DNA of 64,000 nucleotides, from the IMG/VR virus record IMGVR_UViG_3300009548_000002; one strand, 5' to 3'. The DNA comes from a virus. Made by a program: the position numbers and the translations under genes. Shown here piece by piece: positions 4,487-50,235 of this stretch. Position 1 is the stretch's first letter, and each line of letters starts with the position of its first letter. The notes beneath the pieces were generated by a model that saw only the letters and a program-made list of their open reading frames with translations, searched no databases and was not told the DNA's origin.

Positions 4487-5167
4487 ATGGCTCGCATCGT
4501 TTGCATCAGCGACACGCACGGGTTTCATCGGAGCCTCGACGTTCCCGAGGGCGACGTCCTCGTTCACGCGGGCGACATCACCTCTTCGGGCGAGATTTCG
4601 ACCATCATCGACTTCGGGCTCTGGCTCCGAGAGCTGCCGCATCCGCACAAGGTGATCGTCCCCGGCAACCACGATTTTTGCTTCGACATTTCGCACGCCA
4701 AATTCAGGCCGGAGGCGCGCCTACTCCTCGAAGAGGTACCGGACGTCCACTTCCTCTTCGACGTGTCGCGCGTCGTCGCGGGCCTCAAGTTTTACGGCTC
4801 GCCTTGGGTCCCGAACCTCCAGGGCTGGGCGTTTTTCGACCGCGGCGTGGATCGGTTCGAGCGCGCGCCGCGCGACATCGACGTGCTCGTCACGCACGGG
4901 CCGCCCGCGAACGTCCGCGACCGGGGCAGGGACCACGACACGCAACGGGAGCACCACTTCGGATCGCAATCGCTCCTCCGCTACCAGCGGCGGTGCTTCT
5001 CGCTGAAGCTCCACGTCTTCGGGCACGTGCACGAGGCGTACGGGCGCGAAGGCGAGTCGCCGATCATCGTCAACGCGGCGAGCTGCACGCCCGCGCCGTA
5101 TCGGCCCGAGCATCCACCGATCATCGTTGATCTCGGGCCGACGCTCAAGCCGGAGACGCCTTCCTGA
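4487..5167 (+). CDS. Calcineurin-like metallophosphoesterase
   Basis: IVCISDTHG...VLVHAGDI...VPGNHD...VTHGPP...GHVH motif series; start refined to MARIVCISD inside track ORF 4424-5167. Confidence 0.8.
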   Translation: MARIVCISDTHGFHRSLDVPEGDVLVHAGDITSSGEISTIIDFGLWLRELPHPHKVIVPGNHDFCFDISHAKFRPEARLLLEEVPDVHFLFDVSRVVAGLKFYGSPWVPNLQGWAFFDRGVDRFERAPRDIDVLVTHGPPANVRDRGRDHDTQREHHFGSQSLLRYQRRCFSLKLHVFGHVHEAYGREGESPIIVNAASCTPAPYRPEHPPIIVDLGPTLKPETPS

Positions 5168-7229: not shown

Positions 7230-7238
7230 GAAAACCGA

Positions 7239-7520
7239 ATGCCCATCACCGTGAACGTCGGCGAAGTGTTTTTCGACAAGCTCGAGGACGGCCGCTACGA
7301 GCGCTGCATCCTCCAGGCGATGACAGACGACGAGCCCGACCGTCATGCAGCGGCGCGGGGAGGCACGGGCGAGTTCTACGAGGCCATCGGTGACGAAGGC
7401 ACCGCAGAGGAACGGCTCGAGGCGCTCGAGACGGCGGACCACGTCATCTTCGACGTGTCGAACGACGACGGCAGCGGCTTTCCCAAGATGGTCGTGCTCC
7501 GCCGAATCGGAAAATCATGA
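7239..7520 (+). CDS. Hypothetical acidic small protein
   Basis: Track ORF; coding bias. Confidence 0.45.
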   Translation: MPITVNVGEVFFDKLEDGRYERCILQAMTDDEPDRHAAARGGTGEFYEAIGDEGTAEERLEALETADHVIFDVSNDDGSGFPKMVVLRRIGKS

Positions 7521-7723
7521 GCAACGAGCTGACAAAATTCGAGAACGATGAGCCGCCGACAGATCACGTCTATCTTTATTGGGACAACGACGAAAAAGAA
7601 TGGTGCATCTGGTTCGCCGATCCGAATGAAACCGGCGAACCTGAATTTCCGATGTTCAAAAACGGCGACTACGATCGATTCGACCACAAGCTCCACCGAT
7701 ACAAACTCGTGAGGAAATCATGA
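7517..7723 (+). CDS. Hypothetical small protein
   Basis: ATGA overlap. Confidence 0.45.
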   Translation: MSNELTKFENDEPPTDHVYLYWDNDEKEWCIWFADPNETGEPEFPMFKNGDYDRFDHKLHRYKLVRKS

Positions 7724-8019
7724 CGAACGAGAGATTCCCGAAATCCATAAAGGCGCTCCGCGCGAAGTTCTCACGCGGCACGCTCGTCCAGGCGCGCTTC
7801 GTCTTGGGCGATGGCGACGTCGTCGAATTCCAGGGGCTCCTCGAAGGTGGCTACTTCGACAAGGTCGTCACGAGCGTGCGGACGTTCGCGAACCCCGAGC
7901 CGAAGCACGGGGACTACGTGGCCAACTGCACGCATCCCGACTGCGTCGCCATGAAGGCTGAGCCCGGCTACGTGCCGACGAACCACGGACACGCCCGACC
8001 TCGTCAGAAAACCGGGTGA
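7720..8019 (+). CDS. Hypothetical small protein
   Basis: ATGA overlap. Confidence 0.45.
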   Translation: MTNERFPKSIKALRAKFSRGTLVQARFVLGDGDVVEFQGLLEGGYFDKVVTSVRTFANPEPKHGDYVANCTHPDCVAMKAEPGYVPTNHGHARPRQKTG

Positions 8020-8032
8020 TCCACGTCGATGC

Positions 8033-8284
8033 TTGTCGATGCCACATCCCGAAAAAAGCCCGCTCGATCTTCCGACGCCAAAAACCGACCGACAGCGTGC
8101 GCGGATCTTGATGGACGCACTTGCCTGGATCGGGGAGAACGCTCGGTGCGTCGAGGCCCGTTGGCACGCGAGCCGCGCGCTTTCGATCTGCGAGACCGAG
8201 TCGACCGAGTCGACCGAGTTGCTGAAAGGACCGCAACGTGACCGAAGACGAGCTTCAAAGCGCGCACGATCGAGCGTTCCGTAA
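8033..8284 (+). CDS. Hypothetical small protein carrying a 9-bp tandem repeat (GACCGAGTC x3, ESTESTE)
   Basis: Better GC3 than the overlapping frame 8029-8241. Confidence 0.3.
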   Translation: MSMPHPEKSPLDLPTPKTDRQRARILMDALAWIGENARCVEARWHASRALSICETESTESTELLKGPQRDRRRASKRARSSVP

Positions 8285-8558
8285 CAAGCCAAACGTCATG
8301 GCGTCTACGGTCTGCGGTTGCTTCTACTGTCGAAAAACGTGTGCACCGAGCGACGTTCGAGAGTGGGTGCGAGAAGTCGAGGGTGAAAACACTGCCCTCT
8401 GTCCGCATTGCGGCATCGACGCGCTCATCGGCGATGCTTCGGGTTTGCCGGTGACCGACGCGGCGTTTCTCTTGGAGATGCATGCGCATTGGTTCAAGAA
8501 GGCAACGACGTTCACTGCCGCGGAACTCGCCGCAATCGCTGGAAGGAACGAAGTGTGA
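8238..8558 (+). CDS. Zinc-finger small protein
   Basis: CGCFYCRKTC...CPHCG. Confidence 0.45.
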   Translation: MTEDELQSAHDRAFRNKPNVMASTVCGCFYCRKTCAPSDVREWVREVEGENTALCPHCGIDALIGDASGLPVTDAAFLLEMHAHWFKKATTFTAAELAAIAGRNEV

Positions 8559-9130
8559 GCGTCGAAGCTTCCGCCCCGCTCCGCGTGCAGCTCCGCACGA
8601 AGAGGTATTTCTCGTGCCCGTCGTGCGGTAAGCACGAGTTCGAGGTCGAGCACCTGTTCGAAGACGAAATTTCCGGCGAGCGTGAGGTCGGGCCGTGGCA
8701 ATGCGACGAATGCGATGCGACGTGGATGGTGCGCGTCCGTCCGGGCCACGGGACCCTCGACGTCGTCCCCGCGCCGCAGCGGTCGTGGCACAACTGGGAC
8801 ATCCTCGAACTCACCGGCGCCGGCAAGACGATCATCCGCCTCGTCGTTCCCGGGCTCTCGTTCGAGAAGGACCGGAAGCTCGACGAAGAACTCGAGCAGA
8901 AGCGCTTCTACTACGAGGAGAACACGTGTCCGACGAACTACCTCCGTCGGGCGACCCTCGTCGCGTCGGGCGACCATGAGCATTGGGGTGACGACGACCC
9001 GCACGGGCTCTTCCGCTTCGCCACGACGTTCGAACACCCCCTGCGTCCGCATCAAGTCTGGAGCAGCAACGAGATGAACACCCTCGGCGAAATCGCGTGG
9101 AAGACGCTCGCGAAGTTGGGGCGATCGTGA
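8556..9130 (+). CDS. Zinc-ribbon protein, about 191 aa
   Basis: CPSCGKHEF...CDECDATW; GTG start overlapping upstream stop; strong GC3. Confidence 0.5.
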
Positions 9131-9327
9131 GTCGGTCCATTCGCCCTGAGAAGAGTCGGCGGATGCCCGAGGGCCGCGCCGAGTCGCCCGAGATCAAGGA
9201 AGCCGTCGTCAAGCGCCACACGTTCGGCCGCACGGAGAAGATTCGACGCCGGAACAGGAAGACGTGGACGCGGCTCGCAAATAAGCGACGCAGGCGACTC
9301 GATAAGAAGTCGGAGACCGCGTCGTGA
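9127..9327 (+). CDS. Small basic protein
   Basis: GTGA overlap; R/K-rich. Confidence 0.35.
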   Translation: MSRSIRPEKSRRMPEGRAESPEIKEAVVKRHTFGRTEKIRRRNRKTWTRLANKRRRRLDKKSETAS

Positions 9328-9611
9328 TCCCGAAGATGGATCAGAGCAAGCTGCCGAGTGCGGGCGAGATGCGTGAGCGCATCGCCAAGCTCGAAAAGGA
9401 TCGTGAAGACAAACGCACGCTCCGCGGAAAGCACGCGCCGAAACCAGGGACATGCCGCGTCTGCGGCGGCAGCGTCGTGGGTAACGTCGCTTACCCGCAT
9501 TCAGACAGAATCGGTGGCCCGCCGCTCCAGGCCTACGTCCAGGATTGGCACTGCGAGGGCTGCGGCATCGTCTACAAATTCCCGCCGATGGAAAAGAAGC
9601 GAGCGAAGTGA
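9324..9611 (+). CDS. Zinc-ribbon small protein
   Basis: CRVCGG...CEGCG; GTGA overlap. Confidence 0.45.
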   Translation: MIPKMDQSKLPSAGEMRERIAKLEKDREDKRTLRGKHAPKPGTCRVCGGSVVGNVAYPHSDRIGGPPLQAYVQDWHCEGCGIVYKFPPMEKKRAK

Positions 9612-10801
9612 TGAGTGACGAACGAGAAAAATATTTCGTCCCTGAGAACGAGGTCGCTGGGAGCCGGCGCGAACACCTCTCGCCGTCGGGAAAATACAAA
9701 CTCGTCGTGTCGTCCTTCTCGACGCGCGAAGGCGGATGGAGCTACACGCGCGGCAAAGCCTTCAAGATCGGCTCGGATGAACCCATCGCTGTCGTCGATC
9801 GCAATTACTCGGCGTTCCCGTTCTCGTGGATCGAAGATCATCCGAACGGACACGCCTTCCTCATCGCGGGTGAGGATTACCAAGGACAGACCGTCGTCGA
9901 GCTGGATACCGGCAAGCGCCGCGACCACCTCGGCGAAGAGGCCGAGCAGGGTATCGAGTTCTGCTGGTCCGAGCACCGGTTCGATCCGAAGAGCATGCTG
10001 CTCGTCGTGTGCGGCTGCTACTGGGCATGCCCGTACGAGTTCCGCGTCTTCGACTTCATGAACCCGATGGCGGGATGGCCCGAACTCGAGATGTTCGGAC
10101 CGAGCGCCGAGAAAGACGATCGCGAATGGGTCGAGGAAGATCGCAAGTGGCCCGAGATCGTCGCTCCTGATTTGGCAACGCTTGGCCCGACCTTCGTTCG
10201 CACTTTCCAGACGGCGAATTACGACGAAGACGAAGACGAGAGCGACAAGGACGACGAAAGCAACAAGAGCGAGAAGGCGAAGAAGAACCCGGCAGAGATC
10301 CGCGCGATCAAGACTTTCAAACGCGTGGGTCCGAGGCTCATCTTGCAAGACGAATGGGTCTCGGAAGCCGAGAAGAAGTCGCGCCACGAGCGCGAAGAGG
10401 GTCGCAAGAAATACGAGGCCGAGGTCGCCGCCTTCCGCGCGAGCGACCCGCTCTACCTCGCGTACATGAACGAGCTGAACGCGTTCAGGCTCACATGCGA
10501 CGCGGACCATGAGCCCGAAGAACACGATTGGCACGGCATCACACACGACACTTGGTGTCCCGACTTCAAGAAGAAAGAGCGCCGGTGGGGTCGCCGCATT
10601 TACCAGCGAAAACGCAACGAGGCCGGCGTTCTCGAGTCCAGTAACCCCACGATCGAACTCGAATGGGCCGTAGAGACAGGCCCCGTCAAGCTCACGGTGT
10701 GGCACGGCGACGACGGCCCGAAGGTCGAACTCTTCTACGAGCACTCTGTAGATGGAATTCAGAAAGCGTTCGCGCGAGCGCGTGAAGAGATCGCGCGTTG
10801 A
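9611..10801 (+). CDS. Hypothetical protein, about 396 aa, acidic central linker
   Basis: Start MSDEREKYF overlaps the upstream stop; strong GC3 throughout. Confidence 0.6.
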   Translation: MSDEREKYFVPENEVAGSRREHLSPSGKYKLVVSSFSTREGGWSYTRGKAFKIGSDEPIAVVDRNYSAFPFSWIEDHPNGHAFLIAGEDYQGQTVVELDTGKRRDHLGEEAEQGIEFCWSEHRFDPKSMLLVVCGCYWACPYEFRVFDFMNPMAGWPELEMFGPSAEKDDREWVEEDRKWPEIVAPDLATLGPTFVRTFQTANYDEDEDESDKDDESNKSEKAKKNPAEIRAIKTFKRVGPRLILQDEWVSEAEKKSRHEREEGRKKYEAEVAAFRASDPLYLAYMNELNAFRLTCDADHEPEEHDWHGITHDTWCPDFKKKERRWGRRIYQRKRNEAGVLESSNPTIELEWAVETGPVKLTVWHGDDGPKVELFYEHSVDGIQKAFARAREEIAR

Positions 10802-12333
10802 GCTTTCCCTTCCTTCACCGCGAGACGCCCTCGGTCGTGCGCGTCCTTCATCCGGACATCGACATCAAGCTTTTCGCGAACGAGTCGGTCTCCGTGGAGG
10901 CCGACGCATTCGAGCAGCTCATCGAGTTCGCCGACGTGGCCCGCGCGATCCGAGAAGTTCGTGAGCGGGACACGCGCGGCGCCGGCGATCCGTTCTTCGG
11001 CGACGCCGCGCCCGCGATCGAACGCGTCGTGCTCACGCCGGACTTTCACAAAGGCTCGGGCATTCCCGTCGGCACGGTGGTTCAGGCAAAGAACGTCGTC
11101 ATCCCGCAAGCGATTGGCAACGACGTCTGCTGCGGGATGCGGCTCCTCGCGACCGATCTGCCGGCCGAGTCCCTCGAGCCGCACTGGCCCGCGATCCAGA
11201 AGCGTCTCCGCGCGATCTTCTTCGAGGGCGAACGCGACATCCCGATGTCGCCGCGGCAGCGCGAAGCGGTCCTCCGTCATGGCCTACCAGGTCTTGTGGA
11301 CACGTCGGACGACAATCTCACGCGAGGGATCTGGCAGCGCTTCGATCCGAAGTCGCAGCGGGATGACGTCCACCACGTGCACGGCGGCGGGATCCTTCCG
11401 ACAAGGAGACTCTTCGGGTTCGAGAACTTCATCCGCTCGTCGGGCAACATCGACGGCCGCGACCCGCAGATCGGATGCGTCGGCGGCGGCAATCACTTCG
11501 TCGAGATCCAGCGCATCGACGCGCTCTACGAGGGCCACGCGGCTCGCGCGTGGAACCTCGTCCGCGGCAACGTCGCCATCATGGTGCACTCGGGCTCCGT
11601 CGGGATCGGGCACGCTGTCGGTGGGCACTTTATGGATCGCGCGCGCGAGATCTTCCCGAGCGACATCGCGTCGCCGAAAGGCGGCTTCTTCCCACTGCCG
11701 ACGGAAGGACCGAGATGCGAAGAGGGACTCTTCTATCTCGACGGGATGGGGAACGCTGCGAACTTCGCCTTCGCGAACCGGCTCTTTTTGGGTCTCATGG
11801 CTCTTCGCGCCATCGAAGAGGCGACAGGGCTCAGTATCGATGCGCGGCTCGTTTACGACGCGCCCCACAACCTCGTCTTCAAGGACAACGAGTCGTGCCT
11901 CCATCGCAAAGGCGTAACCCCGGCGCACGGGCCAACGGACGACGGCCAAGGTTCCGAGTGGCTCGGCAAGCCTGTCATCATCCCGGGGTCCATGGGCGCG
12001 CCGAGCTACCTTCTCGCGGGCGAGGAGAACGATGAAGCACTCTCAAGCGCGTGTCACGGCGCCGGCCGGAGTCTCTCACGCGGAAAAGCGGCACATGTTC
12101 CGCGCTCCGAGTACCTCGAATCCGTGGAGCGCCTCCGCATCGTCGGGCCCGTCGATCCGAAGTCGCCGATGATGCGAATGAGGAAAGACATTCTCGATAA
12201 ATACGAGAAGCGCATGATGGAGGAGGCGCCTTACGCCTATAAACCCATCGAGCCCGTCATCGACTCTGTCGTGGACGCGCACGTTGCGCAGCGTGTGGCG
12301 AAGCTCTTCCCGCTCTGCACCGTGAAAGGGTGA
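10798..12333 (+). CDS. rtcB: RtcB-family RNA ligase (joins 3'-phosphate/2',3'-cyclic phosphate to 5'-OH)
   Basis: RtcB metal/GMP motif series: DVCCGMR, GGGNHFVEIQ, HSGSVGIGH, LHRKG, CHGAGR; TTG start overlapping the upstream TGA. Confidence 0.9.
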   Translation: MSFPFLHRETPSVVRVLHPDIDIKLFANESVSVEADAFEQLIEFADVARAIREVRERDTRGAGDPFFGDAAPAIERVVLTPDFHKGSGIPVGTVVQAKNVVIPQAIGNDVCCGMRLLATDLPAESLEPHWPAIQKRLRAIFFEGERDIPMSPRQREAVLRHGLPGLVDTSDDNLTRGIWQRFDPKSQRDDVHHVHGGGILPTRRLFGFENFIRSSGNIDGRDPQIGCVGGGNHFVEIQRIDALYEGHAARAWNLVRGNVAIMVHSGSVGIGHAVGGHFMDRAREIFPSDIASPKGGFFPLPTEGPRCEEGLFYLDGMGNAANFAFANRLFLGLMALRAIEEATGLSIDARLVYDAPHNLVFKDNESCLHRKGVTPAHGPTDDGQGSEWLGKPVIIPGSMGAPSYLLAGEENDEALSSACHGAGRSLSRGKAAHVPRSEYLESVERLRIVGPVDPKSPMMRMRKDILDKYEKRMMEEAPYAYKPIEPVIDSVVDAHVAQRVAKLFPLCTVKG

Positions 12334-15307: not shown

Positions 15308-17062
15308 TTACTGAAGTTCGGGCGAAAGGCTGTAGGCCTTCGCAGACCCGTCGATGAGTCCGAGCGCGCGGAGATCCGCGAGCGTCTGCCCGTACGACCC
15401 CGACGTGTTCGAACGTTTGATCGCCGAGGCGATGTCCTCGCGCGACATCGGGCCGGCGCGCCAGAGAGCGCGCAGGACGAGCCCGTCGCTGGCCGGGCGC
15501 TTACCGATCCACCACTCGAGGAGCGCTTCTCCCTTCGGGAGCTTCTCGACGTAGCCGGCGACCTTCGCATGTCCTTCGGTCGTGATCGCAAACTCCTTGG
15601 ACGACCCGACGATGTCTCCCGCCGCCCGCAGATCCGCAAGCGCTTGACCGAATGATCCGCTCGTGTGCGAGTAACCGGTCCAGATCGCAAGCTTCTTCCG
15701 GTTCATCGCACCACCCGCGGCGAGGGTGCAGAGGATCTTCTTCTCGATCGGGCTCATCCCGGCGATCGAAGATTCAGCCTTCGCCGGTTTCACCGGATAA
15801 ACGACTTCATACTCCTTGGCGAACTTCTTCTTCGCGGCGCCGTTCGCGTGCTCCATTTGAGCGGACGTCGGGCCGCCCTCGAGCCAACGCTTGAGCGCCT
15901 TGAGCAGGTAGGTGTTGGTCTCGAGGATCTTGTTGTGGATCTCCTCGGCGCTGTTGAAGACCTCGATTCGCATTTTCTCGAGCGTCTCGAGTTGCTCTTT
16001 TGCCCATTCTGCCTCGGTGCGACTGAGGAGCGGCTTCTCGGGCGGCGGCGCGAGCTTCACCTCGGCGACGCGGCTCGCGAGCTGCCGCTCGAGCTGCGCG
16101 ATCCGCGTGCGAAGCACCTTCGGATCCTCGGCGCTCGCCTTCTCGATCGCGTCCGCCATCTTCTTTTTGAGCGCGTCGAGGTCCACGTGCGCGAGCGTCG
16201 TGGGAGTCACGCGCTTCTCGCCGGCCTTCGGCGTCGCCGACGAGTCGAAGGTCCGGCGCTCGCGGACGGGCACCTCTTTGAAGATGTCGAGCCAACCGGG
16301 CGACCAGCACCACGCGACGCCGCGGGCGAGTTCCGGTAAGCGCGCCAAGAACGTCTCTTTCTGGTCGGCCGTGTCGTGCTGCTCGATCCACCCTTCGAGC
16401 GCTTTGCGATCTTGCGGCGAGCTTGTGCGGTGGCAGATGAGAAGCTCGAGTTGTGTCAAAATATCTTTGTTGACCGACGCCGCGCGCTGGTCGATGACGG
16501 CGACCCCGATGCCGCTCGTCCGTCCTTGGCGAACAAGTTTCTGGATCGCGCCGACCATCTGCGCTTCCGCCCCGGTCACCCGCTGCGGGACGAAAAGATG
16601 TCCCTCGTCGATGGCGAGCAGCATCGGCGTGTCGCGGCCCTCCTCGCCCTTCCTGTGGTAGAGCCTCCGCGCGAAATCCGTCACGAAGCGACGCATGTCG
16701 CCCTGCGACTCGAAGTGCCGGAGCGACAGGATCGCCGGCAGGCGCTCCTCGACGATGAAGTCCGCGACCGTCGCACCATCGGCCGCCGTGAGCGGGACGT
16801 CGCCGTGCCTGCCGCCGAAGACGATGACGGGGTAACCGGCCTCCTTGCCGTTCTTCGATGACTTGAGCCCCCACCAGACGTCGGTTGGGTCGATGATGAC
16901 GACCTGCTGCCCGGCGTCGAGCAGCTCCTCGGTGAGGACGACACACGTGTTCGTTTTGCCCGAACCGCGGATGCCGAGAATCGCGATGGTCTCCGTGATC
17001 GCCTCGAGTGGGAGCGACAGGGCCGTGGAGATGTGGAGCTTTTTCATTCTTTTTTCACCCAT
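15308..17062 (-). CDS. HerA/FtsK-superfamily P-loop ATPase (DUF87-like) with two C-terminal winged-helix repeats
   Basis: Walker A GIRGSGKT; Walker B LLAIDEGHLF; VIDQRAAS...LLICHRT; two homologous wHTH segments (MSPIEKKILCTLAAGG... and LVLRALWRAGPMSREDIASAIKR...). Confidence 0.8.
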   Translation of the reverse strand: MGEKRMKKLHISTALSLPLEAITETIAILGIRGSGKTNTCVVLTEELLDAGQQVVIIDPTDVWWGLKSSKNGKEAGYPVIVFGGRHGDVPLTAADGATVADFIVEERLPAILSLRHFESQGDMRRFVTDFARRLYHRKGEEGRDTPMLLAIDEGHLFVPQRVTGAEAQMVGAIQKLVRQGRTSGIGVAVIDQRAASVNKDILTQLELLICHRTSSPQDRKALEGWIEQHDTADQKETFLARLPELARGVAWCWSPGWLDIFKEVPVRERRTFDSSATPKAGEKRVTPTTLAHVDLDALKKKMADAIEKASAEDPKVLRTRIAQLERQLASRVAEVKLAPPPEKPLLSRTEAEWAKEQLETLEKMRIEVFNSAEEIHNKILETNTYLLKALKRWLEGGPTSAQMEHANGAAKKKFAKEYEVVYPVKPAKAESSIAGMSPIEKKILCTLAAGGAMNRKKLAIWTGYSHTSGSFGQALADLRAAGDIVGSSKEFAITTEGHAKVAGYVEKLPKGEALLEWWIGKRPASDGLVLRALWRAGPMSREDIASAIKRSNTSGSYGQTLADLRALGLIDGSAKAYSLSPELQ

Positions 17063-27739: not shown

Positions 27740-27943
27740 TTGACCTCGCGGTGCAAAGAAGTTAGGTACAGTTACGTGATGAAATACTTCGTGATGCTCG
27801 TCGGCCCGGACGGCAAACCCCTCCCGATGGTGGACGAAGACGGGAGCGTCACGCTCTTCGACTCCGAGGACGACGCCGAGAAGGCCGGCGCCGAGAACAT
27901 CCTTGGCGGCGGGCGCGGCTACGAGGTCTACCCATGGGACTGA
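27740..27943 (+). CDS. Hypothetical small protein (start likely MKYFVMLVG about 27779)
   Basis: Track ORF. Confidence 0.4.
   Translation: MTSRCKEVRYSYVMKYFVMLVGPDGKPLPMVDEDGSVTLFDSEDDAEKAGAENILGGGRGYEVYPWD
27745..27775 (+). promoter_or_regulatory. Sigma70-like promoter candidate: TTGACC, 17-nt spacer, TAGGTA
   Basis: Read directly, upstream of + operon start about 27779; CAGTTAC element shared with other candidates. Confidence 0.35.
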
Positions 27944-28113
27944 AGGCCAGGATCGTCTTCGAAGACGGCGATCGCTCCTCCTCGGATCGCCATTACGTGG
28001 CCATCTTCCTCGGCAGAGACAAGATCGCCGAGAGCCGCTCGATGAGCGAGAAGGACTGCGAGAAGCTCTGCAAGCGCATCAACGACGCCATCGCCAAGGA
28101 ACGCGAGGCCTGA
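27934..28113 (+). CDS. Small protein, about 59 aa (below track cut-off)
   Basis: Hand translation: MGLKARIVFEDGDRSSSDRHYVAIFLGRDKIAESRSMSEKDCEKLCKRINDAIAKEREA; ATGA overlaps on both sides. Confidence 0.35.
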   Translation: MGLKARIVFEDGDRSSSDRHYVAIFLGRDKIAESRSMSEKDCEKLCKRINDAIAKEREA

Positions 28114-29288
28114 TGCTGAGCGATCTGCGCGCCTTTGAAGTCGTGCTCGCGCGCGCCACGTGTCCCGAGGACGTGTTCGGCGTGGCCCTGAACCTCGCCG
28201 CGCTGAAGAAGTCCTTCCACCACATCGCCGTCGTCGTGCATCCGGACAAGTACGCCACCGATGCCGCCACGTCCCGACTCGCGCAAGACCTCTTCGCCAA
28301 GCTCGTCGTCTGGATGAACAGCGCCGAGCACAAAATGGAGCGCGGGACCTACGGCGACCGCGCGCCGCACGAGCCTGCCCCGCCCCCGAAGCCGAAGACC
28401 GCTCTGCAGATCATCGAGACCCCGAAGCGCCGCTACGTCGTCAAGGACCTCCTCGCGCAGGGCGACGTCGCCGACGTCTACGCCTGCACGTACGTGGACA
28501 AGGGCCGGAGCGGCGACGGCGATCACCCCGCCGCGTTCAAGATCGCCCAGAGCGCCGCGGACAACGACCTCATGGAGAACGAGTCGCGCACGCTCTCGGC
28601 GATGTACCCGCCCGCACAAAAAGAAGAACGCTTCTACCGCTACCTCCCGAAGCCGGTCGACTCGTTCCTCCTGAAGTCGGGTGGCGGCGCCGCGCGACGC
28701 GTGAACGTGATGCAGCTCGCGGAGGGTTACGTCTCGCTCGCCGAGGTCATGGCGGCGTACCCGCACGGCCTTGACTACAAAGATGTCGTCTGGATGCTGA
28801 AGCGAAATTTGGCGGCCCTATGGTACTGCCACAGGCAGAAGCTTGTCGTCCACGGCTGCATTATTCCTACAAACCTATTGGTCCATCCGACCGGACACGG
28901 CGCAAAGGTTGTTGACTGGTGCTACGCCGTTCGCGACTGGCCGAACGACAAGGACCACGTCAAAGCGATCAGCAAGGCGTGGAGGGCATACTACGCGCCC
29001 GAGATCCTCGCGAAAAAGCCGCCGACGCCGTCGGCCGACCTCTACATGCTCGCGAAGATCGTCGTGAAGCTCCTCGGCGGTGAAGTCGCGGAAAGCTCGC
29101 CCTCTTTCCTCATCCCCGATGCTGTTCCGAAACCGATTCGATCGTTTCTCTCGGGCATGCTCCTCATGAACCCAGCCCGTCGCCCCGACGACGGCGGCAA
29201 GCTCCACGAGGAGTTCGACGAGCTGCTCCTCAAGCTCGTGGGCAAGCCCAAGTACAGGCCGCTCGTCATGCCCGCGAGGACCGCGTGA
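28113..29288 (+). CDS. J-domain (DnaJ-like) fused to a protein-kinase-like domain with non-canonical catalytic motifs
   Basis: J-domain HHIAVVVHPDKYATDAA...LFAKLVVWMN; kinase-like AAFKIAQ, ENESRTL, VVHGCIIPTNLLVH (HRD replaced by HGC), VVDWCYA (DFG replaced by DWC), YYAPEIL, DLYMLAKIVVKLLGG. Confidence 0.65.
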   Translation: MLSDLRAFEVVLARATCPEDVFGVALNLAALKKSFHHIAVVVHPDKYATDAATSRLAQDLFAKLVVWMNSAEHKMERGTYGDRAPHEPAPPPKPKTALQIIETPKRRYVVKDLLAQGDVADVYACTYVDKGRSGDGDHPAAFKIAQSAADNDLMENESRTLSAMYPPAQKEERFYRYLPKPVDSFLLKSGGGAARRVNVMQLAEGYVSLAEVMAAYPHGLDYKDVVWMLKRNLAALWYCHRQKLVVHGCIIPTNLLVHPTGHGAKVVDWCYAVRDWPNDKDHVKAISKAWRAYYAPEILAKKPPTPSADLYMLAKIVVKLLGGEVAESSPSFLIPDAVPKPIRSFLSGMLLMNPARRPDDGGKLHEEFDELLLKLVGKPKYRPLVMPARTA

Positions 29289-31807: not shown

Positions 31808-32008
31808 ATGTTTTTGGCGATGAAGTCCAGATCTCGATCTCGATCGCTCACGCAGGAGGAGCGAGAAGAGGCGCGTCGGCGCGAGCATGCGTACCGTGAG
31901 GCATGCAGGCTCGAGGACGAAGCGAACGTCGTCATCAAGCCGCTCACGTGGTGGAGACGCTTCTTCTTGTGGCTTGGCAAGACCTTCACCCGATGGGGAG
32001 CGACGTAA
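31808..32008 (+). CDS. Hypothetical small basic protein
   Basis: Track ORF. Confidence 0.3.
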   Translation: MFLAMKSRSRSRSLTQEEREEARRREHAYREACRLEDEANVVIKPLTWWRRFFLWLGKTFTRWGAT

Positions 32009-32011
32009 ACA

Positions 32012-33396
32012 TGGCGAACATCACCCTCGTCCTCGGTCTCGGATTTGGCGATGAAGGCAAAGGCGGCTGCGTAGATTTTTTGGCGCGTCACCACGACGCT
32101 CGGCTCGTCGTGCGGTTCAACGGTGGAGCGCAAGCGGGTCATAATGTCATCGACCCAAACGGACAGCACCACTGCTTCTCGCAGTGGGGATCGGGTACCT
32201 TCGCGGGCGCGCGGACGCTCCTGTCGCGGCACGTGCTCGTGAATCCGATCTTCGCCGAGAGCGAGGCGAGGCACCTCGAGTCCGCCGGCGTCCGGGATCC
32301 CTACGCGCTCCTCTCGGTCGAGCGACTCGCGCCCGTCACGACGCCGTTCCACGTCGCCGCGAACCGGTGCCGCGAGCTTTCGAGGCAAGCGGCGAGCGGC
32401 AGCGTGCACGGGAGCTGCGGCATGGGCGTCGGCGAGACGATGGAGGATCTCGTGGAGGGGAGAGAGACCGTTTGGGTGCGCGACTTCGAGGACGACACCC
32501 CGACGCTCAAGCGGAGACTCTTCCGCATCCAGGAGCGGAAGCGCTCCGAAGTCCTCCAGCTCGCGGCCCTCGATCGCCGCTCCCCGCGCGTCCTCCAAGA
32601 ACTCTTTGTGCTCGAGGACCCGAGCATCGTCGACGCCGTCTGCGCGTCGTACACGAAGTTCGCCCGTAAAGCGTCGATCGTGAATCAAGATTTCCTCGAG
32701 CGCGAGCTGGACGCTCCCGGCCACGTCGTTTTCGAGGGCGCGCAGGGCGTCCTCCTCGACGAGTGGTGGGGCTTCCACCCGCACACGACGTGGAGCACGT
32801 GCACCTTCGACAACGCGACGGAGATCCTCGGCGCCGAGCGCGCGGGCCGCGCTCGGCGCATCGGGGTGCTCCGCACGTTCCACACGAGGCACGGAGCCGG
32901 CCCCTTTCCGACGGAGAATAAGAGCATGGACGCGCTCTCGGCGGACGACCACAACAAGCGCGACCCTTGGCAACACGATTTCCGCACCGGAGCCTTCGAC
33001 CTCCTCCTCGCGCGGTACGCGCTCGACGTGTGCGGCGGGTGCGACGGCCTCGCCTTCACGCACCTCGACAAGCTCGAACGGCGCGCGAGCCTACCCGTCG
33101 CCATCGGGTACTACGTGGACGGCGCCAAGATGGTGCGCATCCCGCACCGGCGCCCGAACGATCTCCAATACCAAGAGCGACTCGGCCGGCAGCTCGCACA
33201 AGCGCAACCCATCTATGCCTCCGCGGATCTTGGCGGCGAGCGCATCGCCATGCTCCACGTGGAAGGACTCGCCGAAATGCTCGAGACTCCGCTTGCGATC
33301 ATCTCACGCGGCAAGACCGCTGCAGACAAGATCACTTTGGGTGAAGGCGCGCATGCTTCCCCGCGCCCGCAGTTCTCCACGCCGCCACCCAACTGA
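32012..33396 (+). CDS. Adenylosuccinate synthetase-family enzyme (PurA/PurZ-like), divergent in substrate-binding motifs
   Basis: GLGFGDEGKGG P-loop; GGAQAGHNV; FEGAQGVLLDEWWG; HTRHGAGPFPTE. The IMP loop reads GSCGMGVGE (canonical TTGRGIGP), the aspartate loop WQHDFRTG (canonical RRRRTG), and the guanine motif THLD (canonical TKLD). Start at MANITLVLG inside track ORF 31903-33396. Confidence 0.85.
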
Positions 33397-44216: not shown

Positions 44217-45123
44217 TCACGTCTCGGCGCGCTTGCGCCGGACAAGCTCGGTGACGAGGCCCGCGGAAGGACCGTGCGCGCGAAAGTAGACGATGGATTT
44301 TCTTCCCGGCCTCGCGCAGAGTTGGCACTCGAGGCACGTGAGCTTATGCGTCTGCGCTGGGCACGAGACGAGCTTGCGGCCCTCGGGCGTCCGGTCCGGG
44401 ACCTCCGCGCGCTCGGGCACGACGACCACGACGGGCGCAATGCCGAGCCCAGCCGCGGCGTCCGCCTCTTCGATTGAATCGGTCGAGAGGTTCACGACGA
44501 ACCCTTGCCGCGTGGCCTCGGTGATCGCGCGCCGGTTCTTCTTCCGGACGAGCACCTGCCACACCTTCGGAAGGACCGGCTTGTGCGTGAACGTGAAGCC
44601 GCGTCGTCCCGCTTGGGCGCGTGCGAGCTGCTGGAGCCTGCCCATGTCGATGGCGTTGCCCTCGCCAGGGAGATCGCCTGCCTCGTTGAAGCGCCAGAGC
44701 GTTCCTTCCTCGAGCGCAGCGACCTCGCAGAGGAAGTCGTCCCACGGCATGCCGCGCTCGCGGACGCGATCCCAATGGTAGCGATCGAAACCGTTGTCGG
44801 CGTAGCAGCCGGCCTCGTAGAACATGCACGCGGGCGGGCACGTCCCGCGCTCGGAGTACGTCGTCGGGATGGGTCCGAGCTTACGATTCCCGCTCCGGGG
44901 GACGAAGGAGATGCGTCCGGCGCTCGCGGCATCTTTCCTCTTCGGTCTCGCGTCGAGCTTCTCCGCGGGAGTCTTCCGCTCCCAGTCGCCGTATCGCTTG
45001 TTGCGCTTGTCGCTGCATGCGTTGCAGAGCGCGTCATGCTCGCGTCCGCGCCGGACGAACGCCGCGCGGGGTTTGTTTCGGTGGCAGCGCGCGCAATTTT
45101 TGGCCGCCGTGGACCCCGCCCTC
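44217..45123 (-). CDS. Zinc-finger protein, about 302 aa, encoded immediately downstream of the HDAC-like gene
   Basis: CARCHRN...CNACSD at the N-terminus; GTCPPACMFYEAGCYADNGF; LTCLECQLC; N-terminal extension of track ORF 44217-45803 rejected. Confidence 0.5.
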
Positions 45124-46015
45124 ATGGCTCTTTTTCGCAGTAGACGCGCGCGCACTCGCGCATCGTGTTGTCGTGGACCTCGAGCACTTTCGGGATGCTT
45201 CCGTCCTTCTCTCGCTGGTAGCCGCCGGCGAGGTTCCACGCGACGGGGATCTCGGCGGCGGGGATCTCGGCGGCGGAGAGCGCGTCGAAGACGATCGCGT
45301 CGCGCCGCCGAAGTTGCTCGGTCGTGAGCCAGCCGCCGTACGGGTCGTCGATGTGCGGGTCGGCGCCGGCTTGGTAAAGGACGACGTCCACCTTGTCGAG
45401 GATCATGTGCGCGAGGACCTCGGGGAGTCCCTCGTCGAGGAACGCCTCCGCCTGATCGGGCCTCGTCCAGTTGAGGCCCGCGGTGAAGTGCGTGATCCAA
45501 TCCGCACCGAAGCGGTTCTTGATGTTCACGGTGCCGTTGCCGTAGTGCATGTCGAGGTCGAGGATGCCGACGCGCGGGATGCCGTCCGCCTTCAACGCGA
45601 AGGCGGCGACCATGAGGCCGTTGAACGTGCAAAAGCCCTCCGCGCTCGCGTAGCCCGCGTGGTGGAAACCCGAGCACGGCGCCGCGGCCGCGGCGCCGGT
45701 CGAGATCGCGAGGCGTGCCGCCTGGAGCATCGCGCCGGACGTGTACGGGAGCGCGGCGGCGACCTCGGGCGACTTGTTGCCGAAGCCGTTGGGCTTTTTG
45801 CATCTGAGGATGTCTTCAGCCCAGTCGACCGCATGCACACGCGCGTAATCGCTGAGCGTCACGGGCCGCGGTTCGAGGATCGTGATCGGGAATTTGTTCT
45901 GCCACGAGGCCACGACCTCCTTCGGCTTCTTCGCGCTCGGAGACTCGCAACCGGAATCGGCGACCATCTTCGGCGTGTAGAAGACCGGAATCTTGAAGAG
46001 CTTGCCTCTCGCCAT
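45122..46015 (-). CDS. Histone-deacetylase-family (HDAC/AcuC/acetylpolyamine amidohydrolase) zinc hydrolase
   Basis: HHAGYASAEGFCTFNGL; VGILDLDMHYGNGT (D-x-D-x-H metal site); VVLYQAGADPHIDDPYG; AGGYQ catalytic Tyr. Confidence 0.75.
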   Translation of the reverse strand: MARGKLFKIPVFYTPKMVADSGCESPSAKKPKEVVASWQNKFPITILEPRPVTLSDYARVHAVDWAEDILRCKKPNGFGNKSPEVAAALPYTSGAMLQAARLAISTGAAAAAPCSGFHHAGYASAEGFCTFNGLMVAAFALKADGIPRVGILDLDMHYGNGTVNIKNRFGADWITHFTAGLNWTRPDQAEAFLDEGLPEVLAHMILDKVDVVLYQAGADPHIDDPYGGWLTTEQLRRRDAIVFDALSAAEIPAAEIPVAWNLAGGYQREKDGSIPKVLEVHDNTMRECARVYCEKEP

Positions 46016-48194: not shown

Positions 48195-48515
48195 TTAGAA
48201 CCGCCTAATCTCCTGGGCACAATCAAGTGACCAGTCTCGGGGGAGTGGGATCGTAGGATCGTGCACGCGGATCCGCTCGTACTCGGCGGGCGTCACCTCC
48301 GCAATGGCGACGGGGAACGGGTCCGAGTCAGACGCCGCGAAGGTGTACACGTCGACGCGTCCCGTCGCAATCGTGGCCCCATTCACCTCGAGCAACTTGA
48401 TCGGCTCGCTCTCGTTCATCTCGTCGTCGCCGAGGAAACGGATCACGTGTGAAAGATCGGGCTCGTGATCGAAATGCCACGCGACGAGTGCGTGCGCCGC
48501 TTCGCCCTTCGTCAT
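48195..48515 (-). CDS. Hypothetical protein
   Basis: Track ORF. Confidence 0.4.
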   Translation of the reverse strand: MTKGEAAHALVAWHFDHEPDLSHVIRFLGDDEMNESEPIKLLEVNGATIATGRVDVYTFAASDSDPFPVAIAEVTPAEYERIRVHDPTIPLPRDWSLDCAQEIRRF

Positions 48516-48868
48516 CGGCTATCCGGCGCACGGTCATAGCTTCGGATCCCGGAAGGATCGAGCAACTCGTTCGCCCGTTCCCAGAACTCGTCGAGCTGCT
48601 CGCGTAGCGCGTCACCGGTACCTTCCGCTCGATACCGCTCGACGAGCTGCATCGCTCGAAACAGATTGCCGGACATCAAAGCCGCCCGCACCGCGCCGAC
48701 ACGCGAAACTTGGCCCGGCAATACGTTCGGGCTCGTCAACTTCGCGATCTCTTCCTCGAGATCCGCGACGACGGCGTACGCAGCTTGCGCTTCGCACGTG
48801 CCGGGTTGCTCGTGCTCCGCCACCCAAATTGCAGCGGTGACGCGCCGGTTGAGATCATCCAGTAACAC
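48512..48868 (-). CDS. Hypothetical protein
   Basis: ATGA overlap. Confidence 0.4.
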   Translation of the reverse strand: MLLDDLNRRVTAAIWVAEHEQPGTCEAQAAYAVVADLEEEIAKLTSPNVLPGQVSRVGAVRAALMSGNLFRAMQLVERYRAEGTGDALREQLDEFWERANELLDPSGIRSYDRAPDSR

Positions 48869-48873: not shown

Positions 48874-49294
48874 CTACTCCACCTGCGGGAGGACCCGCTC
48901 CGTCATCGAATCGCGAACGATGATTTCGCCGAAGCGCGAACGCAGTTGGCCATCAGTGGCGCCCGTGAGCAGTTGGATGATCGGACGAAGCACGGAAAGG
49001 CGAACGTGCTCGTCGCTCACGCGCGTCTCATGCGCGATGAAGACGCGCGGGTGCGGGCACACCGCATCTCCCAGCATTTCCCGGACACGCGCGAGCGACC
49101 GCGGGGCGAGAGCGTACGTCTCGCCGTCTCGGCTAGCGCTGCGGTAGACCACCAAGGGTACGCTCGCTCCGCTTGCGGAGAGTTTCTCCTGCGCGAGGCG
49201 CTGGACCTCCCGGAGTTCGCCCGTCTCCTCGAAGAGAGACTCGAGCGGCGATCCGACGTTGGGATGGTTCGGGAGTTTCGGGAAGTTCTTCATG
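48874..49294 (-). CDS. Hypothetical protein, about 140 aa
   Basis: Start MKNFPKLPNH; C-terminal part of ORF 48874-49470. Confidence 0.4.
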
Positions 49295-50057
49295 GCCTTC
49301 TCTGCATGCTTTGCAAATCGATCGAGCTTGCCCGAACAAGTCGATTGCGAAGAAGTGGACGGTTCCGCCAGTGATCGTTGCGAACCTTGGCGTAGCCTTC
49401 CCGATGCGCCTTCATACGTCCAATGATGCCCTGGGCATCCTCCACGCGCACGTAGACGCCCTCCATCCAATCCGAATCGTCCGTCTCATCCATCGGCCGC
49501 GTGATCCCGACGCGTTTGGCTTCTTCAGCCAAAACGCTGCGCCACGCGGGCGTCTTGTAGAAACTCTTCCCGATGAACGAGCCGAACGCCGGCGCTTTCC
49601 CGAACGGGCCCGACCAAAGGCAAGACACGACGACCACGTCGCACGCGGCGAGCAGATCGTCACGATGAGCGACGCCCAGAAACCGTTCGCGTTCCCTGTC
49701 GAAGACGTCGTAGCCGAGCAGCCAGTCGGGGAGCGCGTCGTAATAGGCCTTGTGCTTCGCGAAACACCACTCGCCGTAAAGCACGTAACGACAGCCGAGC
49801 GCGTCGCGAAGGGCGTCCACGCGCTCCGCGGCCCACCCGTGAAAAGGTGCGAATTGCCGCTCTGAAAGTCCACCCCTCAAGATGTGACCACGACTCTGGA
49901 GCCGAATCTCGCCTTCCTCGAACCAGATGCCGACGTTGGCGCCGTCGACCTTCTCCTCCACGACGACGACGCGCGCGTGCTTCCACGCCTCATAGATGTC
50001 CTCGGTCGCGAGCGACGTGAGTCTGGGTGTCTTCGGGAATTTGATCGCGTCGCCCAT
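49290..50057 (-). CDS. ATP-dependent RNA/DNA ligase-family nucleotidyltransferase (probable RNA ligase)
   Basis: Motif I VVVEEKVDGANVGIW (KxDG lysine-adenylate site); YVLYGEWCFAKHKAY resembles motifs IV/V. Confidence 0.6.
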   Translation of the reverse strand: MGDAIKFPKTPRLTSLATEDIYEAWKHARVVVVEEKVDGANVGIWFEEGEIRLQSRGHILRGGLSERQFAPFHGWAAERVDALRDALGCRYVLYGEWCFAKHKAYYDALPDWLLGYDVFDRERERFLGVAHRDDLLAACDVVVVSCLWSGPFGKAPAFGSFIGKSFYKTPAWRSVLAEEAKRVGITRPMDETDDSDWMEGVYVRVEDAQGIIGRMKAHREGYAKVRNDHWRNRPLLRNRLVRASSIDLQSMQRRP

Positions 50058-50235
50058 GGCTCAAGTTCTCTCGTCTCTCGGTCCTCGATTACGCAAGAGC
50101 ACCTATCCAAACCACGGTCGCTGCAACCGCACCGCAGAAACTCCGTACAAAAATTCTCGAGAAAATCGGTCTAATCATGGGCTCTCGTTGATGGCACGAC
50201 AAAAATAATTTCTGTAAATCCGCCAAGATAAGTTT

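What the first reader, a model, noticed from the sequence alone, without database searches (positions are those of the whole stretch)
49290..50057. Second ligase of a different class: ATP-dependent nucleotidyltransferase with a KxDG motif
VVVEEKVDGANVGIW is a textbook ligase/capping-enzyme motif I, and YVLYGEWCFAKHKAY resembles motifs IV/V. The size (255 aa) fits Rnl-type RNA ligases better than replicative DNA ligases. With RtcB, the element can seal both 3'-P/5'-OH and 3'-OH/5'-P breaks. That mirrors the T4 Pnkp+Rnl1 logic and adds the archaeal/eukaryotic pathway.
Basis: partly seen in the sequence, partly recalled or inferred. Interest (0 to 1): 0.6.

Follow-up and report, generated by a model that had tools for sequence, protein, structure and literature searches.

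The report
Orphan LigB-type RNA-ligase-family enzyme, phage-borne
This gene really does encode an ATP-dependent ligase-type enzyme of the RNA-ligase family on what looks like a giant phage, which is an ordinary kind of find, but it belongs to a puzzling branch whose tested members load themselves with AMP yet have not sealed any standard broken DNA or RNA, and here it lacks its usual end-repair partner.

The parts
49290..50057 (-). 255-aa stand-alone adenylyltransferase-domain ligase (PF09414; LigB/DdrP-type clade)
49935..49958 (-). Motif I, E34-E-K36-V-D38-G39-A-N41; K36 is the predicted AMP-accepting lysine
   Evidence: K36, D38 and G39 conserved in 172/172. K36 aligns with DR_B0100 K40, the experimentally proven adenylylation site (PMC1997131)
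49755..49787 (-).
   Evidence: G95 170/174, E96 173/174, W97 168/174. Its position between motif I/Ia and motif IIIa (D117) matches the ligase motif order
49440..49466 (-). Motif IV, M198-E199-G200-V-Y202-VRVE206
   Evidence: E199 and G200 conserved in 174/174
49401..49421 (-). Motif V variant, G213-R-M-K216-A-H-R219 (K-x-x-R rather than the K-x-K of Rnl2)
   Evidence: K216 174/174, R219 172/174. DR_B0100 has the same spacing, AKWVRR
48874..49293 (-). 139-aa ORF whose start overlaps the ligase stop by 4 nt; function unknown; probably co-translated
   Evidence: Called gene. No Pfam, PHROG or PADLOC hit. Homologs are ~104-aa metagenomic proteins with no link to ligases
48195..48868 (-). Two further tightly packed small ORFs (118 and 106 aa) ending the same co-directional cluster; ORFans
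   Evidence: Gene calls; no family hits; no relatives next to any other ligase locus
50058..50235 (-). 178-nt relatively AT-rich intergenic gap upstream of the ligase; possible promoter region, no sigma-70 consensus match
   Evidence: Sequence; promoter scan found 0 sites
10798..12333 (+).
   Evidence: Pfam RtcB 289.8 bits over the whole model; phrog_1075 'tRNA splicing ligase' E 3e-62 and phrog_32430 'RtcB' in the window census, which does not name the member
4487..5167 (+). Calcineurin-like metallophosphoesterase; the only conceivable 3'-end-healing candidate in the window, but 44 kb away and not of the ligase-linked type
   Evidence: Pfam Metallophos. Only E 0.012 to the ligase-linked ~280-aa Metallophos HMM. 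Instead matches PADLOC PDC-S10, E 5e-63

Best explanation
The gene encodes a single-domain ATP-dependent polynucleotide ligase-type adenylyltransferase. It belongs to the PF09414 RNA-ligase family, specifically the clade that includes Deinococcus DR_B0100 (LigB/DdrP) and the 'LIG' genes that precede HD-Pnk in bacterial repair operons. It is carried as an orphan accessory gene by a large (at least 261 kb), high-GC, phage-like element from peat and soil metagenomes.

Proposed mechanism. K36 in EEK36VDGAN attacks the alpha-phosphate of ATP to give ligase-(lysyl-N)-AMP, assisted by R56, E96, E199 and K216/R219. This step has been shown for homologs and is inferred here. AMP would then pass to a 5'-phosphate end, and a 3'-OH would attack to seal the break. 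These two steps are inferred and have not been shown for any clade member on standard substrates.

Most likely role. It is the sealing step of a heal-and-seal nucleic-acid (most probably RNA/tRNA) break-repair route that complements the phage's RtcB and tRNA genes against host ribonuclease defences. The 5'-kinase and 3'-phosphatase activities would be supplied in trans, from elsewhere in the phage genome or from the host, because none is encoded beside it.

For: Catalytic residues are essentially invariant over 174 homologs.

Clade: hhalign to DR_B0100 gives 97.9%, E 4.9e-13, over 194 columns including the N-terminal KYPxxPxL and C-terminal HWxxxPxxxN elements, against 9% to DraRnl. K36 aligns with DR_B0100 K40, the proven AMP site.

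Repair context of the family: HD-Pnk lies adjacent on the same strand in 75/80 reference-genome loci. In viral contigs, 23 of 47 loci have an end-healing-type gene among the three nearest ORFs. That count breaks down as ~280-aa Metallophos in 14, T4-type Pnkp (AAA_33+HAD_PNKP) in 4, another Metallophos in 3, HD-Pnk in 3 and NT5C in 2, with some loci carrying two. A 60%-identical relative (L140) sits with an Rnl2-like ligase, Metallophos, cREC_REC, an AAA_33 kinase and PTH2.

Element context: RtcB, two tRNAs, two PTH2-like genes and 29 PHROG families including a terminase-like ATPase. Jumbo phages are known to combine RtcB with ATP-dependent RNA ligases plus kinases and phosphoesterases (PMC7824862).
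Against: No clade member has been shown to seal anything alone. DR_B0100 and the Runella LIG self-adenylylate but failed on all tested 3'-OH/5'-PO4 DNA and RNA substrates.

The protein has no recognisable nucleic-acid-binding accessory domain.

No polynucleotide kinase, HD-Pnk, T4 Pnkp, AAA_33 kinase or ligase-linked Metallophos is detectable in the window or in 10 kb either side.

The immediate neighbours are unrelated ORFans not seen next to any other ligase locus.

The window's clade (66 leaves in an NJ tree without bootstrap) contains no HD-Pnk-linked member, so guilt-by-association from the cellular operons transfers only indirectly.

RNA versus DNA as substrate is not decided by any test here. 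Phage identity rests on PHROG content; no capsid, portal or tail gene was seen in the 84 kb examined.
Confidence: 0.6

Rival explanations
1. It is a non-canonical adenylyltransferase. Its true substrate would not be a plain 3'-OH/5'-PO4 break: for example an end carrying a 2'-PO4 or an ADP-ribose/other adduct, or a reaction that stops at 5'-adenylylation, or one that needs an obligatory protein partner. In that case 'RNA ligase' misdescribes what it does in the phage.
For: Two independent laboratories found autoadenylylation without sealing, for DR_B0100 and for Runella LIG. The Runella operon adds Tpt1 and an MTase-HIT gene. The Deinococcus operon adds a PARG that removes ADP-ribose from 5'-phosphate ends. 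Motif V is a K-x-x-R variant conserved across the clade, and Blasius et al. judged motif V absent in DR_B0100. The protein is one domain only. A translationally coupled 139-aa ORF of unknown function follows it.
Against: All residues needed for the three ligase steps in Rnl2-type enzymes have conserved counterparts. The family's repeated pairing with interchangeable kinase/phosphatase healing enzymes in cells and phages is what one expects of a classic 5'-P/3'-OH sealing enzyme. No Tpt1, PARG or HIT gene is annotated in the window or flanks. The 139-aa ORF is not conserved next to other family members.
Confidence: 0.2
2. It is a DNA-repair or DNA-nick-sealing ligase for the phage genome, as originally proposed for DR_B0100 in radiation-damaged Deinococcus.
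For: DR_B0100 heads a DNA-damage-induced operon. One study reports DNA ligase activity in the presence of DR_B0098 and PprA (summarised in PMC6300522). Several database names for family members are 'DNA ligase'. No other DNA ligase is seen in the 84 kb examined.
Against: There is no OB domain or any DNA-binding module. The fold and profile are closer to RNA ligases than to any DNA ligase. DR_B0100 alone did not ligate DNA. Only about a third of the phage genome is visible, so a conventional DNA ligase may lie elsewhere. The surroundings (RtcB, tRNAs, PTH2) are translation/RNA-oriented.
Confidence: 0.12
3. It is a decaying or non-functional passenger gene left after loss of its HD-Pnk partner.
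For: It is an orphan among ORFans, with no healing partner nearby.
Against: The ORF is full-length and every catalytic position is intact. It has normal coding GC3. The identical protein occurs on at least 22 contigs from several samples. It belongs to a 66-leaf clade of similarly orphan but well-conserved proteins, 45-78% identical.
Confidence: 0.03

Closest known systems
Deinococcus radiodurans DR_B0100 (LigB / DdrP), first gene of the DR_B0100-DR_B0099(PARG)-DR_B0098(HD-Pnk) operon
   Same: Adenylyltransferase domain only. Profile homology is 97.9%, E 4.9e-13, end to end. The motif I context is the same (VVxEKxDGxN), with K36 aligned to the proven AMP site K40. Both share the N-terminal KYPxxPxL and C-terminal HWxxxPxxxN elements and the K-x-x-R motif V.
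   Different: Only about 27-32% identical over the aligned parts. DR_B0100 is 210 aa and lacks most of the 150-195 helical insert. It is operonic with PARG and HD-Pnk on a bacterial megaplasmid, whereas the window gene is an orphan on a phage-like element.
Runella slithyformis 'LIG' upstream of HD-Pnk (Munir & Shuman; PMC6097658)
   Same: The ligase ORF's 3' end overlaps the 5' end of HD-Pnk. The same overlap is seen directly in the two annotated cellular homologs L009 and L010, and HD-Pnk is adjacent on the same strand in 75/80 cellular loci. [quoted passage not shown]
   Different: The Runella sequence itself could not be retrieved, so shared family membership is inferred from the operon architecture, not tested. 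The window gene has no HD-Pnk, Tpt1 or MTase-HIT neighbours.
T4 Rnl2 adenylyltransferase domain (PDB 1s68) and TbREL1
   Different: 12-18% identity. It lacks the Rnl2 C-terminal domain, which is needed for nick recognition and step 2. Motif V is K-x-x-R rather than K-x-K. There is no hit to NCBIfam TIGR02307.
Rnl5 nick-sealing RNA ligases (Naegleria NgrRnl, Deinococcus DraRnl)
   Different: It has no N-terminal OB-like domain, since motif I starts at residue 34. hhalign to DraRnl gives only 9% probability.
Jumbo-phage RNA-repair toolkits (RtcB and/or Rnl1/Rnl2 plus Pnk, HAD/calcineurin/HD phosphoesterases, tRNAs; Iyer et al. 2021, PMC7824862) and the T4 Pnkp+Rnl1 system
   Same: A large phage-like genome with RtcB, tRNAs, PTH2 and an ATP-dependent RNA-ligase-family gene. 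Relatives of the ligase in other viral contigs sit next to T4-type Pnkp or Metallophos genes.
   Different: The ligase is neither Rnl1 nor Rnl2. No kinase or phosphatase partner is visible in 84 kb. The components are scattered rather than forming a cassette.

Membership tests
Covalent nucleotidyltransferase superfamily (ATP/NAD ligases, capping enzymes) | Motif I KxDG with a conserved nucleophilic lysine | tested here: met
   EEK36VDGAN; K36, D38 and G39 conserved in 172/172 non-gap sequences
Covalent nucleotidyltransferase superfamily (ATP/NAD ligases, capping enzymes) | Co-linear motifs Ia, III, IIIa, IV and V, and the NTase fold | tested here: met
Pfam PF09414 RNA_ligase | Score above the curated gathering threshold | tested here: met
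   105.4 bits against a cut-off of 27, residues 30-212
Rnl2 (T4 Rnl2 / REL1) | Rnl2-specific C-terminal domain following the NTase domain; match to TIGR02307 | tested here: not met
   The protein ends 36 residues after motif V. The AF2 model shows a single domain plus a short tail. No TIGR02307 hit at E up to 1.
Rnl5 (DraRnl / NgrRnl) | N-terminal OB-like domain preceding the NTase domain; match to TIGR02306 | tested here: not met
   Motif I begins at residue 34. hhalign to DraRnl gives 9%. No TIGR02306 hit.
Rnl3 (Pab1020 / MthRnl) | N-terminal, dimerisation and C-terminal domains around the NTase; TIGR01209 above cut-off | tested here: not met
   TIGR01209 scores 15.7 bits against a cut-off of 136.9, covering residues 7-57 only. 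The profile-to-PDB hit is limited to the pre-motif-I/motif I segment.
Rnl1 (T4 Rnl1) | Rnl1-type NTase with a C-terminal tRNA-specificity domain | tested here: not met
ATP-dependent DNA ligases | OB-fold domain with motif VI after the NTase domain; DNA_ligase_A_M profile | tested here: not met
   No DNA-ligase Pfam hit. No OB domain in the model. DNA ligases rank below all RNA ligase families.
LigB/DdrP-type 'HD-Pnk-associated LIG' clade | NTase-only protein of ~200-265 aa homologous to DR_B0100, with KYPxxPxL N-terminal and HWxxxPxxxN C-terminal elements | tested here: met
   hhalign 97.9%, E 4.9e-13 over 194 columns. P8 157/174, T10 164/174, W230 170/174, N238 173/173.
LigB/DdrP-type 'HD-Pnk-associated LIG' clade | Operonic linkage to HD-Pnk (ligase ORF immediately upstream of, often overlapping, HD-Pnk) | tested here: not met
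   Met in 75/80 cellular loci but absent here. tblastn and HMM searches of the window find no HD-Pnk. The downstream gene is a 139-aa ORFan. The window's 66-leaf clade has no HD-Pnk-linked member.
LigB/DdrP-type 'HD-Pnk-associated LIG' clade | ATP-dependent autoadenylylation at the motif I lysine | not testable with these tools
   Shown for DR_B0100 K40 and for Runella LIG. It needs an [alpha-32P]ATP assay with wild type and K36A.
T4-like heal-and-seal RNA repair system (Pnkp + ATP-dependent RNA ligase) | A polynucleotide 5'-kinase / 3'-phosphatase encoded with the ligase | tested here: not met
   No Pnkp, HD-Pnk or AAA_33 kinase in the window or in the 10-kb flanks. The remaining ~180 kb of the genome could not be read.

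The most novel reading that the evidence does not exclude
The orphan phage clade to which this gene belongs may have become independent of dedicated end-healing enzymes because it acts on an unconventional end or reaction. Examples are sealing breaks that already carry 5'-P/3'-OH from metal-dependent host nucleases, sealing ends with a 2'-phosphate or another adduct, or merely 5'-adenylylating a target. If so, it would give the first defined substrate for the LigB/DdrP branch, whose biochemistry has been unresolved since 2007. It might work together with the translationally coupled 139-aa ORF as a trans-acting binding subunit.
Probability: 0.15. Interest if true: 0.6.

Novelty: new member of a known kind. 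Interest (0 to 1): 0.33.

Why it matters
On its own this is one more RNA-ligase-family gene in a giant phage that also has RtcB and tRNAs. That pattern is already catalogued for jumbo phages (PMC7824862).

The useful points are narrower. First, the gene belongs to the enigmatic DR_B0100/HD-Pnk-linked branch, which self-adenylylates but has never been seen to seal a standard substrate. Annotating it as a working 3'-OH/5'-P sealing enzyme would therefore be premature.

Second, the comparison made here shows a shift in partners. The branch is almost always welded to HD-Pnk in cells (75/80). In phages the partner is exchanged for Metallophos, T4-type Pnkp or HD-Pnk, or lost altogether. Partner swapping argues that the branch is a genuine heal-and-seal ligase. 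It also offers a set of natural variants, including this orphan clade, on which its substrate could finally be defined.

Tried and rejected
1. Sequence search of the single protein against PDB chains gave only noise. The family profile reached only the pre-motif-I/motif I segment of archaeal Rnl3 structures, so the family placement had to come from fold comparison.

2. The afdb50 fold library was unavailable.

3. tblastn of the protein against the plasmid collection did not pick up Deinococcus MP1. The DR_B0100 link appeared only after fetching the megaplasmid by accession and using profile comparison.

4. I searched the window for any end-healing partner using several probes: tblastn with two actinobacterial HD-Pnk proteins, a P-loop regex, tblastn with the L140 kinase, Metallophos and second ligase, and HMMs of five neighbour families. 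All were negative except a marginal Metallophos-superfamily hit at 4418-5164, E 0.012.

5. The PHROG 'kinase' hit is the Ser/Thr-type protein kinase at 27903-29288, not a polynucleotide kinase.

6. The HD protein at 22081-22611 was considered as a 3'-phosphoesterase or DatZ. It looks instead like a RelA/SpoT hydrolase domain.

7. The 139-aa coupled ORF was considered as a ligase partner. It has no domains and no co-occurrence with other ligases.

8. The window ORF 24799-25779 gave a weak hit to the ligase HMM but is not a paralog: hhalign 2.3%.

9. PADLOC gave no defence-system assignment for the ligase or its neighbours.

10. The Munir & Shuman 2017 and Schmier & Shuman 2018 papers are not held. 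A text search for Rnl2 residue numbers found nothing, so those numbers rest on my own knowledge.

11. No sigma-70-like promoter or convincing terminator flanks the gene.

Full report
**Observation.** Its codon-position GC pattern (GC2 0.45, GC3 0.75) is that of genuine genes in this ~62% GC window. Both quoted peptides are present, at residues 31-45 and 91-105. The match to Pfam RNA_ligase (PF09414) is 105.4 bits, E 4.8e-30, against a cut-off of 27, covering residues 30-212. PHROGs assigns two 'RNA ligase' families. A search of 5.8 billion proteins returns 646 homologs of about 240-265 aa; all 120 listed carry PF09414. The identical protein is seen on at least 22 contigs up to 261.5 kb from ENA and JGI metagenomes.

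**Anatomy.** I first aligned 31 homologs and then 174.
- The motif I lysine K36 and D38/G39 are present in 172/172 non-gap sequences.
- R56 (motif Ia, QSRGH) is present in 174/174, and E96 (motif III, YGEW) in 173/174.
- D117 (motif IIIa) is present in 167/174, and E199-G200 (motif IV, MEGxY) in 174/174.
- K216 is present in 174/174 and R219 in 172/174. Together they form a K-x-x-R version of motif V.

The AlphaFold2 model built on the alignment is confident (mean pLDDT 90.2, pTM 0.88). It shows one compact domain with a helical insert around residues 150-195 and a short tail, and no second domain.

Foldseek gives the same order, and the viral structure library returns phage and giant-virus RNA ligases. 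Identity to every solved structure is only 10-21%, and no single-sequence hit to PDB exists.

The protein fails the defining accessory-domain tests for Rnl1, Rnl2, Rnl3, Rnl5 and DNA ligases. It has no OB, no Rnl2-C, no Rnl5-N and no Rnl3 flanking domains. NCBIfam gives only 15.7 bits to TIGR01209 against a 136.9 cut-off, and nothing to the Rnl2 or DRB0094 models.

By contrast, profile comparison with Deinococcus radiodurans DR_B0100 (LigB/DdrP) gives 97.9% probability, E 4.9e-13, over 194 columns running from the N-terminal element to the C-terminal tail. I fetched DR_B0100 from megaplasmid MP1. The neighbouring Rnl5 enzyme DraRnl gives only 9%. BLASTP aligns K36 with DR_B0100 K40.

[quoted passage not shown] It heads a damage-induced operon with a PARG (DR_B0099) and the HD-phosphatase/polynucleotide kinase DR_B0098. 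One report of DNA ligase activity requires DR_B0098 and PprA (PMC6300522). A 2025 study proposes that the operon repairs ADP-ribose-blocked ends (PMC11833690).

[quoted passage not shown] I could not retrieve the Runella sequence. The same architecture is what I find for the cellular homologs of the window protein. In Nocardiopsis and Virgisporangium the ligase ORF overlaps a ~375-aa HD+AAA_33 protein by 14-17 nt. Among the 80 best of at least 574 reference-genome loci, 75 have an HD-Pnk homolog adjacent on the same strand, 74 of them directly downstream. These loci span Actinomycetota, Cyanobacteria, Myxococcota, Planctomycetota, Alphaproteobacteria, Clostridia and Chloroflexota. NCBIfam has no model for this clade.

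**The family in phages.** IMG/VR holds 48 related loci, many on contigs of 300-480 kb. HD-Pnk is adjacent in only three (L017, L022, L028). Clustering the three nearest ORFs of each locus, with Pfam checks on representatives, shows that other end-healing enzymes take its place:
- a ~280-aa calcineurin-like Metallophos protein 37-653 nt downstream on the same strand in 14 loci;
- a bona fide T4-type Pnkp (AAA_33 + HAD_PNKP) 20-389 nt upstream in 4 loci;
- a second Metallophos type in 3 loci;
- an NT5C-type HAD protein in 2 loci.

Allowing for loci that carry two of these, 23 of 47 viral loci have such a neighbour. RtcB lies within 8 kb in two loci (L013, L046).

A 60%-identical relative on a 326-kb contig (L140) sits within 12 kb of several related genes: an Rnl2-like ligase, a Metallophos, a cREC_REC protein, a 153-aa AAA_33 kinase, PTH2 and Cpn10. 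This repeated but interchangeable pairing with kinase/phosphatase enzymes is the best available evidence that the clade is the sealing component of heal-and-seal pathways, despite the negative in vitro results.

**This copy.** The window gene is an orphan. It opens a tight co-directional run of four ORFs: the ligase, then 139, 118 and 106 aa, with 4-nt overlaps or a 5-nt gap. A 178-nt AT-richer gap precedes the run, and a convergent serine recombinase follows it. The three small ORFs have no family assignment and no relatives next to any other ligase locus. The 139-aa ORF has only ~104-aa domain-less metagenomic homologs.

No HD-Pnk, T4 Pnkp, AAA_33 kinase or ligase-linked Metallophos is detectable in the window by tblastn, a P-loop scan or HMM searches of the six-frame ORFs. 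None appears in the precomputed Pfam annotation of the 10 kb beyond each end.

The window's own Metallophos (4487-5167) is 44 kb away, is not of the ligase-linked type (E 0.012) and matches PADLOC candidate family PDC-S10. The HD protein (22081-22611) resembles a RelA/SpoT hydrolase.

In a neighbour-joining tree (no bootstrap), the window protein falls in a 66-leaf clade containing 61 metagenomic proteins, 4 IMG/VR contigs, no reference genome and no HD-Pnk-linked member. Its sister group contains all 75 HD-Pnk-linked sequences. There is no ligase paralog in the window.

**The element.** RtcB is confirmed at 10798-12333 (Pfam 289.8 bits over the whole model), 37 kb from the ligase. The window also holds:
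- two well-supported tRNAs;
- two PTH2-like genes;
- a PurA/PurZ-like synthetase, a Ser/Thr kinase and an HDAC-like gene;
- a HerA/terminase-like ATPase;
- a total of 29 PHROG family matches.

Most genes are short co-directional ORFans, and the contigs reach 261.5 kb. I read this as a jumbo phage with about 0.75 confidence. No capsid, portal or tail gene was seen in the 84 kb available.

The jumbo-phage survey of Iyer et al. already documents several relevant points (PMC7824862). Such phages combine tRNAs with RtcB and/or ATP-dependent RNA ligases 'in any combination'. The ligases generally co-occur with polynucleotide kinases and HAD, calcineurin-like or HD phosphoesterases. Rare divergent ligases outside Rnl1/Rnl2 exist.

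**Mechanism and rivals.**
- Main explanation (0.6). A classic three-step ligase chemistry starting with K36-AMP formation, used to seal nucleic-acid breaks (most probably RNA), with end-healing supplied in trans. It would complement RtcB, which handles 3'-P/2',3'-cyclic-P + 5'-OH ends directly. Shown here: family, fold, intact catalytic residues and the clade's genomic associations. Shown only for homologs: autoadenylylation. Inferred: AMP transfer, sealing, RNA preference, and a counter-defence role.
- Main rival (0.2). The clade needs an unconventional end or an obligate partner, which would explain two independent failures to detect sealing.
- DNA-repair ligase (0.12). This is disfavoured by the lack of an OB or DNA-binding domain and by fold ranking.
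- Decayed gene (0.03). This is disfavoured by perfect motif conservation and wide sampling.

**Verdict.** It is wrong on the motif IV/V assignment. It over-reaches in asserting sealing competence and a T4-like Pnkp+Rnl1 logic. The gene is a new member of a known kind: a phage-borne, HD-Pnk-uncoupled representative of the LigB/DdrP-type branch of PF09414. Interest is modest (0.33). It rests on the unresolved biochemistry of that branch and on the partner-swapping pattern documented here, not on the mere coexistence of two ligase classes in a giant phage.

Noticed in passing
window 31903-33396 (+) (called gene about 32011-33396): Adenylosuccinate-synthetase homolog. Pfam scores 209 bits. It hits phrog_1211 '2-aminooxy adenylosuccinate synthetase' (PurZ-type) at E 1e-72. 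It falls below the NCBIfam PurA cut-offs (168.7 against 402) and scores only 37 bits to the PurZ model. The element might make 2-aminoadenine DNA, but PurA versus PurZ is unresolved.
   Followed up: partly
window 4487-5167 (+): A calcineurin-like phosphoesterase on the phage-like element matches the PADLOC candidate anti-phage defence family PDC-S10 (E 5.3e-63, 210 bits).
   Followed up: partly
window 22081-22611 (-): A stand-alone HD_4 protein resembling the RelA/SpoT hydrolase domain (TIGR00691 N-terminal part, E 3e-15; phrog_990, E 2e-34). It is probably a phage small alarmone hydrolase.
   Followed up: partly
window 24038-24451 (-) and 41974-42225 (+): Two peptidyl-tRNA-hydrolase (PTH2)-like genes. 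The second is a short 83-aa version lying just upstream of the tRNA pair.
   Followed up: partly
window 42341-42501 (+) and 40308-40380 (-): The tRNA at 42427-42500 (ARAGORN: Tyr, GTA) shows a 9-nt anticodon loop in the Rfam alignment. ARAGORN's adjacent 'tRNA-???' with a 4-base 'actc' anticodon (42341-42425) gets no Rfam tRNA support even at E up to 1. A third tRNA at 40308-40380 (-) is called by Rfam only.
   Followed up: partly
window 44217-46015 (-): A histone-deacetylase-family gene (45122-46015) lies next to a DUF7227 gene (about 44217-45125; 242.7 bits; phrog_2554). The pair is conserved in all copies of the element.
   Followed up: no
window 9614-10801 (+): A 395/396-aa ORF whose stop overlaps the RtcB start. 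It has no Pfam, PHROG, NCBIfam or PADLOC hit. It is a possible RtcB partner of unknown type.
   Followed up: partly
window 15308-17062 (-): A HerA/FtsK-like P-loop ATPase whose ATPase part matches phrog_2666 'terminase large subunit' (E 6e-21, partial). It is the only packaging-like gene seen. No capsid, portal or tail genes were found in the 84 kb examined.
   Followed up: partly
L140 1-20726 (ENA ERZ26871208 contig_128460_np1212, 326 kb): A related giant element carries a dense RNA-repair-like cluster within about 12 kb: PTH2, an Rnl2-like 315-aa ligase, a 726-aa ORFan, the LigB-type ligase, a Metallophos, cREC_REC and a 153-aa AAA_33 kinase, plus Cpn10.
   Followed up: partly
L032 and L033 (IMG/VR contigs), about 6600-10150: A compact phage cassette in this order: T4-type Pnkp, LigB-type ligase, (in L032 a conserved 198-aa Cys-rich ORF of unknown function, also seen in L025, L026, L030, L031 and L035), then a ~280-aa Metallophos.
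   Followed up: partly
L142 7705-8967 (10 kb left of the window) and L143 5333-5827 (right of the window): A DDE_Tnp_1 transposase (with a weak SWIM hit) and a PLDc_2 gene lie just left of the window. A weak dual-specificity-phosphatase (DSPc) 164-aa gene and a 537-aa AAA_25/RadA-like ATPase lie just right of it.
   Followed up: no
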